Shown here piece after piece: positions 13,673-17,041 of a stretch of 64,000 nt of DNA. The position numbers and the translations under genes are program-made. The DNA lies in assembly GCF_009914755.1 (NCBI RefSeq), contig NC_060929.1; one strand, given 5' to 3'. The notes under the pieces were generated by a model, which was not told the DNA's origin, did not search any database, and saw only the letters and a program-made list of their open reading frames with translations. Position 1 is the first letter of the stretch, and each line of letters opens with the position of its first letter. This DNA is from the human T2T-CHM13v2.0 reference genome, Homo sapiens.

Positions 13673-14058
13673 CTGCTGTAGATGAGGCACTCTCGGTTAT
13701 TGATGACTTTATCCGATTTGTACCTCCGGAGGTCTTCCCAAGCGTCCTTGATGGCAGTGACTGCCAGGATAACACAGATTGGTATCATGCTCACCTCAGG
13801 CTGGAAAGCATTGACCACAGGGATAAAATTCAGAACCGCAATGCCCACAAAATAGAGATTGGCAAACCGGTGTAGCTGCTCAAAAATGTTTTTGGGGACG
13901 AAGGACAACACGGTGTACTTGCTGGTCTTGATTTGATTCCCACGATGATGTCTGTTGGGGTTCTCTTTGTGAGACCATCCTTCAAAGAGCAAGTTAGAGA
14001 CCACTACTCGCTTCTTGTCTTCTTTTCTTTTCCACCTTTTCCTCCCTTCCTTTTTCAT
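13673..14058 (-). CDS. ATP10B: Alternative N-terminal coding exon of ATP10B (386 nt CDS; N-terminus plus TM1-TM2 in one exon: [12 protein letters not shown]...[10 protein letters not shown])
   Basis: Intact 129-aa ORF homologous to the two canonical exons ([44 protein letters not shown]); phase-2 donor AGCAG|gtaaag at the homologous Arg; candidate acceptor ttttcatttttag| at 14155. Confidence 0.88.
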
Positions 14059-14222
14059 CTCTGCTCAATGTTGTCTTTTTAATTCTCATAATTTAATTTT
14101 CATCTTTTACTTGCCTTCTTTGCTGAAAATTTTTCTCTCTTCTTTCAGAAGGATACTAAAAATGAAAAGCCAGGCTGCAAACCCCAGGGGAGAAACATGA
14201 CAAGGAAAGAGCCTGCAGAGAA

Positions 14223-14337
14223 CAGGTGTGTATCCACCAGGCCACTTCCTTCTACTTGTTTGAGACTCCACCTGTTGGAATGTAGACGTCACCTACAGGT
14301 GTCTTCCTTTTCCACCCTGGGCAGCCAAGAACAGGTG
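14223..14337. promoter_or_regulatory. Candidate regulatory cluster upstream of the alternative exon: 4 CAGGTG/CACCTG E-boxes, ETS core ACTTCCT, CRE-like GACGTCA
   Basis: CAGGTG at 14223, 14296, 14332; CACCTG at 14269; ACTTCCT at 14244; GACGTCA at 14285. Motif evidence only. Confidence 0.35.
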
Positions 14338-14588
14338 TACCAACTCTGGGTCCTAAAACCTACCTGGTTCTAAAAGCAAGAATTTTCAACCCAAGCAACT
14401 GAGGCTTTAAAATGGCAGACATTTTCTTGGTTTGGGAGACACTGCCTGACATCCTCCAAAGAGTTTCTCCTGAACTTAGTCTCCCAAGATAATCCAGCCA
14501 TCCTAGAGTTTAATTCTTAAGCTTTCAACTCACCTTTAATAATACTGCATCTGTGTGCTTAATAATATGAGTGCTTATACAACTTAAA

Positions 14589-14804
14589 CAAGTTTTCTCA
14601 GCCTCAGCACTATTGACATTTTGACTGGTTAATAATTGTTCCCCGGTGGTGTCCTGTGTATCGTAGGCTATTTAGCAGAACCCCCGGATTTTACCCACTA
14701 GATGTCAGTAGTACCCCCTACTCCCAGTATGACAACCAAAAATGTCTTCAGACATTACTAAATGCCCACTAGGGGTCGAAATCACCCCCCCTTGAGAATC
14801 AGTG
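14589..14804 (-). mobile_element. MER20 (hAT-Charlie) DNA transposon
   Basis: Matches reverse-complement MER20 (tttctcagcctcagcactattgacatttt...cccactagatgtcagtag...ttgagaatcagtg). Confidence 0.85.
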
Positions 14805-14916
14805 AATTAAATAATTTAGGAAAATAAAATCGAAGAAAAGAGACTCATCCTGAGGCTATGCTGATGAGTTTGCCTAACCCATTTGCAAGAGAGAACACAG
14901 GGATGGTTTTTCTTAC

Positions 14917-15111
14917 CTTTCATAAATTCGAATGTTGGAGCAGTTTATTGCTTTATCAAAGCGGTGTCTCTTGAAGTCCTCCATGCCATCCTTGATCATG
15001 ATGACGAACAGGACAATGGCCAATGGTAACATGGTGATTTCTCTGTGGAAGACTTCCATGGAGGGCATCCAGTTCAAAATCACCAGGAACAGGAAATAGA
15101 GGTTAGCCCAT
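14917..15111 (-). CDS. ATP10B: ATP10B second canonical coding exon (195 nt), TM1-TM2: (R)[64 protein letters not shown](R)
   Basis: Manually translated (absent from the ORF track); acceptor cccctccag|A, donor GAAAG|gtaaga; phase 2-2, in frame with the previous exon; P4-ATPase KD..ED..R...D..IN motif. Confidence 0.96.
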
Positions 15112-15270
15112 CTGGAGGGGCAAGCGAAGTGTGAATAAACACTATGGAGAAGAAAAATGTACTTTCTCCCCCATTTCTTCCCTACTGTTTGGCCTTGATC
15201 AATTAAACCTTCTCTTTCAGTATCACCTCAAACATTATGGTAATGGATTTGAAGCCAAACCCATCTAGAT

Positions 15271-15507
15271 GTATTTATTATTTCCATAGATTATTGGGGA
15301 ACAGGTGGTGTTTGGTTACATGAGTAAGTTCTTTAGTGGTGATTTGTGAGATTTTGGTGCATCCATCACCCGAGCAGTATACTCTGCACCCAATTTGTAG
15401 TCTTTTATTCCTCTCCCCTTCTCACCCTTTCCCCCTAAGTCCCCAAAGTTTGTTTTGTCATGCTTATGGATGAGACTGGAGATGATTATTCTCAGGAATG
15501 GAAAACC
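15271..15507 (-). mobile_element. Short L1PB-like 3' fragment with an inverted 5' piece, inserted into a MIR
   Basis: Reverse L1PB 3'UTR followed by forward ggatgagactggagatgattattctc; flanks aaacccatctagat / aaaaccatttagat. Confidence 0.55.
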
Positions 15508-16319
15508 ATTTAGATTTAAATTCTGTTCCTGTTATTTACTCGTTGTGTGATTTTTTTGAGCTTATTTCCTCTTGCACAAAATGGGGATAGTATTATGGAC
15601 TTTAAAGGGGTCCCATAAATATTACATGATCTATAATATTTGCATGATATACAGTAGAGGGCTCTGGAGCATAGCAGTTGCTCAGTAAATGGTCACTTAT
15701 AATAATAATTACAATATTGAGGGTGATATATAAGCACATATTTTAACTTTTAATTTAAAATGATCTCATACATTATCTCAAAAGAGTTGCTGATGTTTTC
15801 AAGTTTTCCACGTGCATCTTGCTCTCTCTTGCCACAGTGCCTTTGCATGTGCAGGTCTGTCTGCAGGAACATTCTGCTGACTTCTGTCCATCCCTTTTCA
15901 CTCAGGTAATGCAGTCTCTCTTTCATGTTGTACTTCAATTCCCTGACTTTCTTAACTAGGCCAAGATTTCCTTATTATTCACTATAATAGCACCATATAC
16001 CTCTCCTTAGAAGTATCTATTGTAGTTACAACTTTATATCAATTTATATAATTAAAAAACTAATGTCTATCTCTTTTACTAGACAATATATTCAATAAGG
16101 ACAGTATCTCTCTGCCTCTCCATTTTTTTTATGTATCTCTAGCTCCCAGCTTATGGCCTGAGACAGCATAGAACCTGACAAATATTTGTTGAATGAAAGA
16201 ATGAATGAAAAAACTTCTTAAGACAAATGCATTTGGATATTAAAGGAAAGGTGGCCCCCAGAGGGTAGCATCTCTGAGTTTATCTAAGTGGTAAATACTT
16301 GTTTAAAATATGTATTGGT

Positions 16320-16607
16320 GGCCGGGTGTGGTGGCTCACTCCTGTAATCCCATCTCTTTGGGAGGTTGAGGCAGGCGGATCACTGGAGCCCAGGAGTTAG
16401 AGACCAGCTTGGGCAACGTGGCAAAACCCCATATCTACATAAAAGTACAAAAATTTGCCGGGCATGGTGGTGCACGCCTGTGGTCCCAGCTATTTGGGAG
16501 GCTGAGGTGGGAGATTCCCTTGAACCCAGGAGGTGAAGGTTGCAGTGAGCCGAGATTGCACGACTATACTCCAGCCTGGGGAACAGAATGAGACTCTTTC
16601 TCTAAAA
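16320..16607 (+). mobile_element. AluJ-like element ending about 30 nt from the donor of the first coding exon
   Basis: ggccgggtgtggtggctcac...gagcccaggagtt. Confidence 0.9.
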
Positions 16608-16637
16608 AGAGTATTGTTCAGACAAGTGGATCTCTAC

Positions 16638-16912
16638 CTATGAAATTGCTCAAAGAGATTCCGGGGCAGGAAGGTGAAGAGGGTGTATTTGGTTGTGCAG
16701 GTTCTGTTGCCAGGGTATCTCCTGGAGACCTCTTCCCAATCTTGATGGAATATGCTGTTGTTGGGGAACACGACCCGCTGCTGTGTCAAGTTGTAGCTCT
16801 GTCTCCCTTTCTCTGGAGAGAGCAGCGGTGTGGTTTCCGATGGACAATGGGGGAAGCCATCTCTGACTCTCCACTGCCACCGATGCCACGATGAGTCCAC
16901 TGAGAGGGCCAT
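16638..16912 (-). CDS. ATP10B: ATP10B first canonical coding exon, 275 nt CDS (exon 16638-16932 including 20 nt of 5'UTR); cytosolic N-terminus up to FEQFHR
   Basis: [12 protein letters not shown]...[20 protein letters not shown] has the P4-ATPase TTKY..F.P.NLFEQF motif; acceptor tgtgtctgttttcag|ATCT, Kozak gaaATGG, phase-2 donor CATAG|gtagag. Confidence 0.97.
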
Positions 16913-17041
16913 TTCCAGCAGCAGGCGAAGATCTGAAAACAGACACAGGAGGAGCTATGTTTAGGAGAAACGTGCAGCATGTTGGCCTGTTCATTTCTCC
17001 CCCATCCATGCAGGGTAGACACTGAAAGTAGTCTTAACCCA

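What the first reader, a model, noticed from the sequence alone, without database searches (positions are those of the whole stretch)
13673..16932. ATP10B carries two interchangeable, anciently diverged N-terminus/TM1-TM2 modules: one ATP10D-like, one ATP10A-like
Seen: a single-exon 129-aa module (13673-14058) is homologous along its length to the canonical two-exon 157-aa module (16638-16912 plus 14917-15111). Both end at the same phase-2 Arg (YE-R|gt versus YS-R|gt), so either can join the next shared exon, and using both would duplicate TM1-TM2. The alternative ORF has no stops or frameshifts despite heavy divergence, which implies selection. Recalled knowledge: ATP10A has a basic N-terminus, R.V.SNLL, LNFVPAVNAFQP and WED..R..SD..IN...CL..SR, all in one first exon. 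ATP10D has LNW.P..E.F..EITMLPL and an intron after FEQFHR. The alternative exon matches ATP10A in sequence and in lacking the intron; the canonical pair matches ATP10D in both. Inference: an ancestral ATP10 gene had both modules, ATP10A and ATP10D each kept one after vertebrate genome duplications, and ATP10B kept both. TM1-TM2 form part of the P4-ATPase lipid entry gate, so module choice could shift phosphatidylcholine versus glucosylceramide preference. An isoform with this N-terminus is probably already annotated; the paralog-mosaic reading and its functional consequence are the potentially new part.
Basis: partly seen in the sequence, partly recalled or inferred. Interest (0 to 1): 0.9.

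Follow-up and report, generated by a model that had tools for sequence, protein, structure and literature searches.

The report
ATP10B's two ancient alternative front ends
The human lipid flippase gene ATP10B can start with either of two related front ends, both conserved from fish to human, and only one of them carries the signal that sends the protein to lysosomes.

Summary
Window 13673-14058 (minus strand) is an intact single-exon N-terminus/TM1-TM2 module. It is homologous to the canonical pair 16638-16912 plus 14917-15111, and both end in the same split Arg codon.

It is an alternative first exon with its own transcript starts, lying downstream of the canonical coding exons. It is not a classical mutually exclusive exon.

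The canonical module is clearly ATP10D-like. The alternative one is only marginally nearer ATP10A in raw identity (53/90 against 51/90 to ATP10D), but it shares ATP10A's one-exon structure and groups with ATP10A in trees at moderate support.

- Both modules exist in atp10b from a bony-tongue fish to human.
- Teleost atp10d also carries both, so "ATP10D kept one" holds for human only, and the double front end predates the B/D split.
- Whether it predates the split from ATP10A is unresolved (AU p 0.198).

Two functional points:
- The published late-endosome signal ETTPLL sits only in the canonical module: 85 of 85 proteins against 0 of 105.
- The TM1 pair published as a glucosylceramide determinant is NW in the canonical module and NF in the alternative one.

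The isoform is already annotated as a predicted model. I did not find these readings in print.

The parts
13673..14058 (-). Coding part of the alternative first exon: 128 codons plus AG of a split Arg. It encodes a basic N-tail ([24 protein letters not shown]..), TM1, the luminal loop and TM2. This is the A-type module.
   Evidence: Open frame; translation; PF16209 at 78.3 bits; P4-ATPase chains only among the PDB matches; 100% match to a human predicted ATP10B isoform X4, P0004.
14059..14285 (-). 5' untranslated part of the alternative first exon, with two annotated starts (14229, 14285). It holds two upstream ATGs: a uORF at 14086-14103 (5 codons) and an out-of-frame uORF at 13994-14089 (31 codons) that overlaps the main ATG.
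   Evidence: Hub annotation gives the exon ends. Neither end is preceded by AG, and both uORFs were translated. CpG observed/expected is 0.17 and GC 0.42 over 14059-14900, so this is not a CpG island.
16638..16932 (-). Canonical coding exon A (CDS 16638-16912): the N-tail with ETTPLL and the first half of PF16209, ending FEQFH-R|gt in phase 2.
   Evidence: Orthologues found in eutherians, marsupials, reptiles and birds and in Scleropages.
14917..15111 (-). Canonical coding exon B: TM1, loop and TM2 ([30 protein letters not shown]|gt). This is the D-type module.
16820..16837 (-). ETTPLL (Glu26..Leu31), the acidic dileucine signal published as required for late-endosome targeting of ATP10B. It is present only in the canonical module.
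   Evidence: Coordinates and translation. Okamoto 2020, PMC7530900, passages. Census 85/85 against 0/105.
15069..15074 (-). Asn105-Trp106 of the canonical module. This is the TM1 position equivalent to ATP10D N110,W111 (the 'GA motif' position of Dnf2).
   Evidence: Roland preprint passages.
13825..13830 (-). Asn77-Phe78 of the alternative module. This is the TM1 position equivalent to ATP10A N98,F99.
   Evidence: Roland preprint passages.
14928..14930 (-). CGA codon of Arg153. This is the site of the Parkinson-associated nonsense variant R153X, which lies in the canonical-only exon B.
   Evidence: Codon checked. The variant is listed in Wouters 2023 preprint passages.

Best explanation
ATP10B has two homologous, mutually exclusive 5' modules, chosen by promoter use rather than by splice choice.

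How the choice works. Transcripts from the upstream promoter use two coding exons (16638-16912 and 14917-15111). Transcripts that start at about 14229 or 14285, inside the intron that follows, begin with one exon (13673-14058 coding). Either module joins the same next exon (window -490) through an identical phase-2 Arg codon. Each protein therefore has one N-tail and one TM1-TM2 hairpin.

Age (shown). Both modules have been kept as protein in atp10b since at least the common ancestor of teleosts and tetrapods. The same D-type-then-A-type arrangement exists in teleost atp10d. The double front end is therefore older than the ATP10B/ATP10D split. Those two genes, with ATP10A, lie in a four-fold paralogous region. 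Human ATP10D later lost the A-type exon.

Age (open). I lean slightly to an origin before ATP10A diverged, with ATP10A then losing the D-type pair. This is not established.

Function (inferred from published mutagenesis and chimeras).
- The canonical isoform carries ETTPLL and goes to late endosomes and lysosomes, with an ATP10D-like Asn-Trp gate.
- The alternative isoform lacks any [DE]xxxL[LI] signal, so it should sit at the plasma membrane, as ATP10A-NT and ATP10D-NT chimeras of ATP10B do.
- It has an ATP10A-like Asn-Phe gate, which may shift it from glucosylceramide toward phosphatidylcholine.
For: Structure. Frames, phases, donors and non-acceptor 5' ends are.

Homology..

Conservation of the alt module. 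308 proteins at E<=1e-10 among 507 candidates, of which 120 were listed. Every listed row with a gene name is ATP10B ('VB'), from primates through marsupials, platypus, birds, reptiles and amphibians, at 66-100% identity.

Conservation of the canonical module. 97 proteins at E<=1e-5 among 132 candidates: eutherians, three marsupials, crocodile, turtles, squamates and birds.

Both modules in one species.
- Struthio: P0080 and P0213. Podarcis: P0077 and P0206. Bodies are identical or nearly so.
- Scleropages atp10b P0384 carries [32 protein letters not shown] followed by an A-type module.

Teleost atp10d.
- The A-type N-terminus is 'ATPase VD isoform X2/X3' in many teleosts.
- These proteins, and P0328 with a D-type N-terminus, sit in the ATP10D clade together with P0310 and P0302 (D-type-module reps in the D + P0353 clade, 96/89; B 100/100; B+D 98/98). 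In the FastTree body tree a human ATP10D exon fragment also lies in that clade.

Gene order. 12 of 12 read-through gene models with two near-complete modules run D-type then A-type.

Protein-level constraint, alt against canonical: Homo-Struthio 70/89 against 58/89; Homo-Scleropages 63/90 against 54/89.

Paralogon. Neur_chan_memb gene clusters flank ATP10B, ATP10A and ATP10D, and a fourth cluster on X has no ATP10 gene.

Sorting signal.
- ETTPLL occupies residues 26-31.
- [DE]xxxL[LI] is present in 85 of 85 D-type-first ATP10B N-tails and in 0 of 105 A-type-first N-tails.
- Okamoto 2020, PMC7530900, passages: Leu30 and Leu31 are required, and D-ATP10B goes to the plasma membrane.
- Review PMC11775268, passages: ATP10B with the ATP10A or ATP10D N-terminus goes to the plasma membrane.

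Gate. Roland preprint passages, with numbering verified. Among 475 near-complete modules, 304 read NF, 158 read NW and 13 read something else.
Against: No RNA or protein data for the human alternative isoform were examined here.
- Its support is the hub's RefSeq exon rows, a predicted 'isoform X4' model and an unnamed 200-aa representative (P0219).
- Two upstream ATGs precede the main ATG, which could lower translation.
- The eutherian N-tail is shorter than in other tetrapods: the module starts at residue 39, against 57-79 in the marsupial, monotreme, bird, lizard, turtle and Xenopus rows; the other three amphibian rows start at 42-48.

Function is inferred, not measured.
- The localisation prediction rests on chimeras that swapped only the cytoplasmic N-terminus, not TM1-TM2.
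- The gate prediction rests on loss-of-function substitutions. The passages I saw do not report a W-to-F swap.

Selection. No nucleotide sequences of orthologues were available, so no dN/dS was computed.

Coverage. No canonical-type hit came from amphibians (the search is word-limited). The D-type module is therefore shown in atp10b for amniotes and one teleost only.

Timing relative to ATP10A is unresolved.

Tree conflict. The module tree's inner order (Balt,(A,Dalt)) at 87/78 disagrees with the body tree (A,(B,D)) at 98/98. A 93-column tree resolves little at this depth.
Confidence: 0.72

Rival explanations
1. Timing rival (later origin). The module was duplicated in the common ancestor of ATP10B and ATP10D, after ATP10A had split off (between the two rounds of genome duplication). 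ATP10A never had a D-type pair. The A-like look of the alternative exon is retained ancestry, not special kinship with ATP10A.
For: - The body tree is (A,(B,D)) at 98/98. Dual modules are seen only in B and D.
- This scenario needs one loss fewer than an earlier origin.
- The constrained tree holding B/D alt-type and D-type modules together is not rejected (lnL difference 17.0, p-AU 0.198).
- There is no D-type exon or relic in the 20 kb upstream of human ATP10A exon 1: the best hit has E 0.005 and is on the wrong strand, while the positive control gave 8e-44.
- The alt module is nearly as close to ATP10D as to ATP10A (51 against 53 of 90).
Against: - The ML trees place all A-type modules (A, B-alt, D-alt) in one clade that excludes the D-type: 84/77 in the full set and 80/83 without the fast ATP10B canonical rows.
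- D-type modules share NW and K-E..M.P with non-vertebrate representatives, and human ATP10D matches invertebrate P0248 at 59/90, against 51-53 for the A-type modules. Under this rival those states would be reversals.
Confidence: 0.4
2. The human alternative exon is a conserved-looking but functionally negligible leftover. It would be transcribed at low level from a weak internal start and poorly translated because of uORFs, and it would add nothing to ATP10B biology.
For: - Two upstream ATGs, one overlapping the main start.
- No CpG island.
- The human protein is only a predicted model of 1366 aa, whereas 1433-1436 aa would be expected and is seen in other mammals.
- The functional papers I read use only the 1461-aa form.
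Against: - The frame has stayed intact and is as conserved as the canonical module, or more so, across about 90 positions from fish to human.
- In many birds and amphibians this N-terminus is the X1 or the only listed ATP10B model.
- Hatje 2017 supplements list an ATP10B two-exon cluster whose members differ in tissue peak, esophagus against colon. The held files give no coordinates, so identity with this pair is not shown.
Confidence: 0.12
3. It is a classical pair of mutually exclusive internal exons chosen by the spliceosome, as catalogued for ATP10B by Hatje et al. 2017.
For: - Hatje 2017 names an ATP10B MXE cluster (main-text passage; supplements).
- The two modules are homologous, adjacent and have the same end phase.
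Against: - The alt exon carries its own ATG and N-tail, and both of its annotated 5' ends lack an AG acceptor.
- The position homologous to the start of exon B (before GTTTGCC) is preceded by CG, not AG.
- The only in-frame acceptor-like site (before 13951) would duplicate TM1-TM2. I saw it used only in read-through gene models.
- Hatje's statement that the cluster is absent from marsupials does not fit.
Confidence: 0.05
4. The alternative exon was copied recently from ATP10A into ATP10B, by gene conversion or by insertion of a partial copy.
For: - It has the single-exon structure of ATP10A exon 1 and shares its motifs.
Against: - ATP10B alt modules form their own clade (100/95) whose branching follows the species tree from teleost through amphibians to mammals. 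They are not nested within ATP10A (99/89).
- Identity to human ATP10A is only 53/90.
Confidence: 0.01

Closest known systems
Engineered N-terminus chimeras of ATP10 proteins (Okamoto et al. 2020, PMC7530900; passages read)
   Same: Replacing the ATP10B N-terminus with that of ATP10A or ATP10D removes ETTPLL and moves ATP10B to the plasma membrane. The natural alternative isoform makes the same kind of exchange.
   Different: The natural isoform also exchanges TM1, the luminal loop and TM2. It is produced by an internal promoter, and its localisation has not been measured.
ATP10B 'MXE cluster' in the catalogue of human mutually exclusive exons (Hatje et al. 2017, PMC5740500; one main-text passage and two supplement tables read)
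   Same: It flags two alternative homologous exons in ATP10B with different tissue peaks (esophagus against colon).
   Different: The held files give no coordinates, so identity with this pair is unverified. The paper calls the cluster eutherian-only. Here both modules are found in marsupials, sauropsids and a teleost, and the mechanism is alternative transcription start rather than exon choice.
ATP11C C-terminal isoforms a/b (as described in Okamoto 2020 and review PMC11775268; passages read)
   Same: P4-ATPase isoforms of a single gene differ in a terminal sorting motif (SVRPLL, LLSYKH) and hence in localisation.
   Different: That variation is C-terminal, involves no transmembrane segment, and the alternative parts are not homologous duplicates.
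Homologous alternative exons that swap a transmembrane segment, e.g. CaV1.2 exons 8/8a (PMC3060452; search listing and abstract only)
   Same: Duplicated exons encode alternative versions of the same membrane segment in one protein.
   Different: Those are internal exons under splicing control. Here a whole N-terminal module is selected by promoter.
Variable first-exon arrays with constant downstream exons (UGT1A, clustered protocadherins; recalled, not checked here)
   Same: Homologous first exons, each with its own promoter, are joined to shared downstream exons.
   Different: Those are large arrays that diversify ligand or recognition domains. ATP10B has two modules, one of which is split by an intron.

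Membership tests
P4-ATPase N-terminal segment (Pfam PF16209 PhoLip_ATPase_N) plus TM1-TM2 | Match to PF16209 above the curated cut-off | tested here: met
   The alt exon scores 78.3 bits against a cut-off of 29, covering profile 7-66 of 67. Canonical exon A scores 45 bits. Exon B alone scores 24.7 bits, below the cut-off.
P4-ATPase N-terminal segment (Pfam PF16209 PhoLip_ATPase_N) plus TM1-TM2 | Sequence similarity to the TM1-TM2 region of solved P4-ATPases | tested here: met
   All 20 of 20 PDB sequences at E<=0.01 are P4-ATPases (ATP8B1, Dnf1/2, ATP8A1, ATP11C, Drs2, Neo1, ATP9A-type). Query residues 38-126 align to ATP8B1 92-180. No chain is named ATP10.
ATP10A-type (A-type) module | Whole module, from ATG to the split Arg, in one exon | tested here: met
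   Alt exon. Human ATP10A has one 169-codon frame.
ATP10A-type (A-type) module | Asn-Phe at the TM1 'GA motif' position, and FQP after TM1 | tested here: met
   The alt module has N77-F78 and NAFQPE. ATP10A has N98-F99 and NAFQPG.
ATP10A-type (A-type) module | Groups with ATP10A modules to the exclusion of D-type modules in a tree | tested here: inconclusive
   The clade is recovered at 84/77 and 80/83, but the rival constrained tree is not rejected (p-AU 0.198). Raw identity is 53/90 to ATP10A against 51/90 to ATP10D.
ATP10D-type (D-type) module | Phase-2 intron after FEQFHR, Asn-Trp in TM1, and E.F..EITM.P | tested here: met
   The ATP10B canonical pair and human ATP10D both show these features. 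The D-type clade has support 100/99.
Classical mutually exclusive exons | Both alternatives are internal exons with a functional acceptor and donor, chosen by splicing | tested here: not met
   The alt exon's annotated 5' ends are not preceded by AG, and it carries its own start codon.
Alternative first exon / alternative promoter | Own transcription start downstream of the other first coding exons, own ATG, and a shared downstream acceptor | tested here: inconclusive
   Position, ATG, donor and shared next exon are shown. The start sites themselves come from the hub's RefSeq rows. No CAGE or RNA data were available.
Acidic dileucine sorting signal [DE]xxxL[LI] | Motif present in the cytoplasmic N-tail | tested here: met
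   The canonical module has ETTPLL at residues 26-31. The motif is present in 85 of 85 orthologous tails and in 0 of 105 alt-type tails. Its function comes from Okamoto 2020 passages and was not tested here.

The most novel reading that the evidence does not exclude
The two-module front end is older than both vertebrate genome duplications. On this reading a single ancestral ATP10 gene already switched, by promoter choice, between a Trp-gate module and a Phe-gate module. ATP10A then lost the first, and tetrapod ATP10D lost the second. ATP10B (and teleost atp10d) still use the switch. In ATP10B it would change compartment (lysosome against plasma membrane) and lipid preference (GlcCer against PC) together. 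Parkinson-linked variants in the canonical-only exons, such as R153X, would then leave a plasma-membrane ATP10B isoform intact.
Probability: 0.35. Interest if true: 0.75.

Novelty: new member of a known kind. Interest (0 to 1): 0.55.

Why it matters
ATP10B is studied as a lysosomal glucosylceramide and phosphatidylcholine flippase linked to Parkinson's disease. The functional papers I read passages of use only the 1461-aa canonical form.

The second front end has been conserved for more than 400 million years. It lacks the lysosomal targeting signal and carries the ATP10A-type residue at a published GlcCer-determining position. This has three consequences:
- The gene probably encodes two flippases that differ in compartment and possibly in substrate bias.
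- Variants in 16638-16912 and 14917-15111, including R153X at 14928-14930, affect only one of them.
- Knock-down, antibody and expression data should be read isoform by isoform.

For evolution, ATP10B and teleost atp10d give a dated case of a duplicated transmembrane module kept as an alternative first exon across a whole-genome duplication and then lost differentially.

The isoform itself is already annotated. I did not find the sorting and gate reading, or the atp10d result, in print. The searches were made, and only the top-ranked rows of each were seen.

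Tried and rejected
- Relics. tblastn with 44 A-type modules against the 7.3-kb human ATP10D intron after its TM1-TM2 exon gave a best E of 0.009 on the wrong strand. 24 D-type modules against the 20 kb upstream of ATP10A exon 1 gave a best E of 0.005 on the wrong strand. The positive control gave 8e-44. The whole-genome tblastn of the alt module scored all 31 candidates and gave no extra chr4 or chr15 hit at E<=0.001. I rejected these hits as noise.
- Timing tests. AU tests of 'alt plus D-type one clade' (p 0.198) and 'all vertebrate modules one clade' (p 0.337) reject nothing.
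- Clean quartet characters. Pooled consensus gave 1, 1 and 0. This is too thin to decide.
- Apparent second module in sturgeon P0225. It is an exact internal repeat in a record flagged UNVERIFIED_CONTAM, so I treated it as an artefact.
- Canonical module in amphibians and in more fish. None appeared.
- Unplaced proteins. D-type fragments P0311 and P0363, and protein P0353, could not be assigned to A, B or D.
- Earlier findings of this scan.
- PDB. There is no ATP10 structure to map the gate residues on.
- Not done. No structure prediction or complex prediction was run. No dN/dS was computed, because no orthologous DNA was available.
- An unaligned identity count was wrong by a one-residue offset. 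It was redone on an HMM alignment.

Full report
**What is in the window**

On the minus strand, the frame 13669..14064 is open for 131 codons. An in-frame TGA lies two codons before the ATG at 14058.

The 386-nt coding part (13673-14058) and the 470-nt canonical coding part (16638-16912 plus 14917-15111) both leave two bases. Both therefore end on AG of a split Arg codon. All three donors are AG|GT.

The alternative exon is homologous to both canonical exons:
- 20/51 identical to exon A, E 9e-11.
- 26/62 identical to exon B, E 2e-18.

Pfam PF16209 is covered in one piece by the alternative exon (78.3 bits, profile 7-66). The canonical intron splits it into 9-39 and 42-66. All 20 PDB sequences matched at E<=0.01 are P4-ATPases. 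None is an ATP10.

**What kind of alternative it is**

The alternative exon lies downstream of both canonical coding exons. Its two annotated 5' ends (14229 and 14285, from the hub's table) are not preceded by AG. It brings its own ATG and N-tail.

It is therefore an alternative first exon driven by an internal, CpG-poor start region (CpG o/e 0.17). It is not a spliceosome-chosen internal exon.

The shared next exon is at chr5:161199299-161199511, just outside the window.

**The paralogues, checked in the same genome**

- ATP10A on chr15 has the whole module in one 169-codon frame ending VFSR.
- ATP10D on chr4 has an exon ending FEQFHR and a second exon from AANLYF to VYSR.

Identities over 90 aligned positions:

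| Pair | Identical of 90 |
|---|---|
| alt - ATP10A | 53 |
| alt - ATP10D | 51 |
| alt - canonical | 41 |
| canonical - ATP10D | 56 |
| canonical - ATP10A | 40 |

The canonical module is plainly D-like. The alternative one is only marginally nearer A in raw identity. It does share ATP10A's exon structure and the NF, FQP, WED, SD and Cys motifs.

**Conservation**

A named search with the alternative module found 308 proteins at E<=1e-10 among 507 candidates, of which 120 were listed. The named rows are ATP10B, from primates to marsupials, platypus, birds, reptiles and amphibians. This N-terminus is often the X1 or the only listed model.

The canonical exon A found 97 proteins at E<=1e-5 among 132 candidates: eutherians, three marsupials, crocodile, turtles, squamates and birds, but no amphibian or fish. 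That search is word-limited.

Ostrich and wall lizard each have both isoforms on the same body.

A read-through model from the bony-tongue fish Scleropages carries a canonical-type tail with SETTPLLS and [18 protein letters not shown], followed by an A-type module. Its body groups with tetrapod ATP10B (B clade 100/100).

Protein identity is at least as high for the alternative module as for the canonical one:
- Homo-Struthio: 70/89 against 58/89.
- Homo-Scleropages: 63/90 against 54/89.

No orthologous DNA was available, so no dN/dS was computed.

**Teleost atp10d also has both modules**

Two fish fragments that matched the alternative module (P0063, P0064) hold a D-type module followed by an A-type module.

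A named search with the second half of P0063 found 3103 proteins at E<=1e-10 among 3767 candidates, of which 120 were listed. It returned 'ATPase VD isoform X2/X3' from many teleosts (Sander, Thunnus, Perca, Epinephelus, Salmo, Coregonus, Xiphophorus, Oryzias, Puntigrus and others). These proteins start with the A-type module.

In the body tree (30 rows, 1071 columns, LG+G4) these proteins lie in the ATP10D clade. So does P0328, which starts with a D-type module. B plus D is supported at 98/98, with ATP10A outside. For that tree the human ATP10A body was stitched from chr15 exons. The FastTree body tree also places a human ATP10D exon fragment in that clade.

All 12 gene models with two near-complete modules run D-type then A-type.

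The double front end is therefore older than the B/D split. Human ATP10D has lost the A-type exon.

Cys-loop receptor gene clusters flank all three ATP10 genes, and a fourth cluster on X has none. This fits the view that the three genes are products of the vertebrate genome duplications. The names of those receptor genes are recalled, not tested.

**Is the arrangement older than ATP10A's divergence?**

A tree of 92 modules over 93 columns (LG+C20 by PMSF) gave these clades:
- D-type: 100/99.
- ATP10B-alt: 100/95.
- ATP10A: 99/89.
- Teleost atp10d-alt: 100/99.
- All A-type modules together: 84/77.

The A-type clade is still recovered at 80/83 when the fast ATP10B canonical rows and three unplaced rows are left out.

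The rival trees are not rejected:
- Alt-type and D-type together without ATP10A: lnL difference 17.0, p-AU 0.198.
- All vertebrate modules as one clade: p-AU 0.337.

That site is functionally loaded.

The inner order of the module tree (Balt,(A,Dalt)), at 87/78, also conflicts with the body tree.

Non-vertebrate status of the outgroup rows is shown by the body tree for 12 full-length representatives only. The short fragments are unnamed.

I treat the timing as open, with a slight lean to the earlier origin. The lean rests on D-type modules sharing NW and KE..M.P with non-vertebrate sequences.

**Function**

Okamoto et al. 2020 (PMC7530900; passages) showed three things:
- The ATP10B N-terminus is sufficient for late-endosome targeting.
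- Leu30 and Leu31 of ETTPLL are required.
- ATP10B with an ATP10D N-terminus goes to the plasma membrane.

The 2025 review PMC11775268 (passages) says the same for the ATP10A N-terminus.

ETTPLL is at window 16820-16837. A [DE]xxxL[LI] motif occurs in 85 of 85 D-type-first ATP10B N-tails and in 0 of 105 A-type-first tails.

The Roland et al. preprint (10.1101/373712; passages) reports the following:
- ATP10D N110,W111 and ATP10A N98,F99 occupy the TM1 'GA motif' position.
- Substitutions of the NW pair abolished GlcCer transport.
- Substitutions of the NF pair moderately affected PC transport.

The numbering was verified here. ATP10B has N105-W106 in the canonical module and N77-F78 in the alternative one.

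From this I infer that promoter choice switches both destination and gate type. Neither has been measured for the natural isoform.

**Known or new**

The isoform exists as a predicted RefSeq model.

Hatje et al. 2017 list an ATP10B 'MXE cluster' with different tissue peaks. They call it eutherian-only, which contradict. The held supplements give no coordinates.

None of the ATP10B papers I read passages of mentions an alternative N-terminus. Six literature searches listed no paper with such a title or abstract. Only the top rows of each search were seen, and subscription journals are not covered.

**Verdict**

It is corrected on ATP10D and remains open on ATP10A.
- The finding is an ordinary kind of gene architecture (a homologous alternative first exon) in a gene where it has been overlooked.
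- It gives two concrete, testable functional predictions and bears directly on how disease variants are read.

Noticed in passing
window 13951-13953 (minus strand): The AGA codon of Arg36 in the alternative exon follows CCCCAACAG and forms an in-frame acceptor-like site for any phase-2 donor. Using it after exon B would give a protein with two TM1-TM2 hairpins. The camel model P0015 reads ..IQIYE-R-HYRGNQIK across this point. All 12 of 12 two-module gene models are such read-throughs, in the order D-type then A-type.
   Followed up: partly
window 14086-14103 and 13994-14089 (minus strand): There are two upstream ATGs in the alternative exon's 5' UTR. One opens a 5-codon uORF. The other opens a 31-codon out-of-frame uORF that overlaps the main ATG.
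   Followed up: partly
window 14928-14930 (minus strand): The CGA codon of Arg153, site of the Parkinson-associated nonsense variant R153X (listed in Wouters 2023 preprint passages), lies in the canonical-only exon. Transcripts from the internal start would not contain it.
   Followed up: partly
proteins P0183, P0188, P0193 (canonical) and P0066, P0068-P0070, P0073, P0074 (alternative): Marsupials have both module types. Hatje 2017 states that the ATP10B MXE cluster is absent from Metatheria.
   Followed up: partly
proteins P0013, P0023 against P0066, P0076, P0080, P0075: In the eutherian rows examined the alternative N-tail is short: the module starts at residue 39. In marsupial, platypus, ostrich, lizard, turtle and Xenopus rows it starts at residues 57-79, and in the other three amphibian rows at 42-48. 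The human in-frame TGA two codons before the ATG marks the truncation.
   Followed up: no
proteins P0311, P0363, P0353: These are divergent D-type modules (LNWIP.VEAFRK..TMIP). Two are short fragments and one is a 906-aa protein with an ATP10D-like body. They could not be assigned to A, B or D and could come from early-branching vertebrates.
   Followed up: partly
proteins P0283, P0299, P0332, P0312, P0304, P0309: Some representatives treated as non-vertebrate have Phe (and three also have Pro) at the A-type signature positions. They branch next to the vertebrate A-type clade (98/91 and 89/91). The bodies of P0312, P0304 and P0309 group with P0247, which has the Trp type. This is either convergence at the gate position or a hint that both types are older than vertebrates.
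   Followed up: no
protein P0225 (Acipenser sinensis record flagged UNVERIFIED_CONTAM): The protein contains an exact internal repeat of about 175 residues starting inside the D-type module. This looks like an assembly or model artefact, not a second module.
   Followed up: yes
G000 chr5 161.82-162.68 Mb, chr15 24.29-25.27 Mb, chr4 46.02-47.39 Mb, chrX 150.22-150.92 Mb: Clusters of Neur_chan_memb (Cys-loop receptor) exons flank ATP10B, ATP10A and ATP10D. A fourth cluster on X has no ATP10 match nearby.
   Followed up: partly
proteins P0372 and P0064 (teleost atp10d models): One model joins ..NLFQQFHR directly to the A-type exon. The other inserts nine residues exactly after FQQFHR. Both indicate that the phase-2 intron after F(E/Q)QFHR is also present in fish atp10d.
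   Followed up: no
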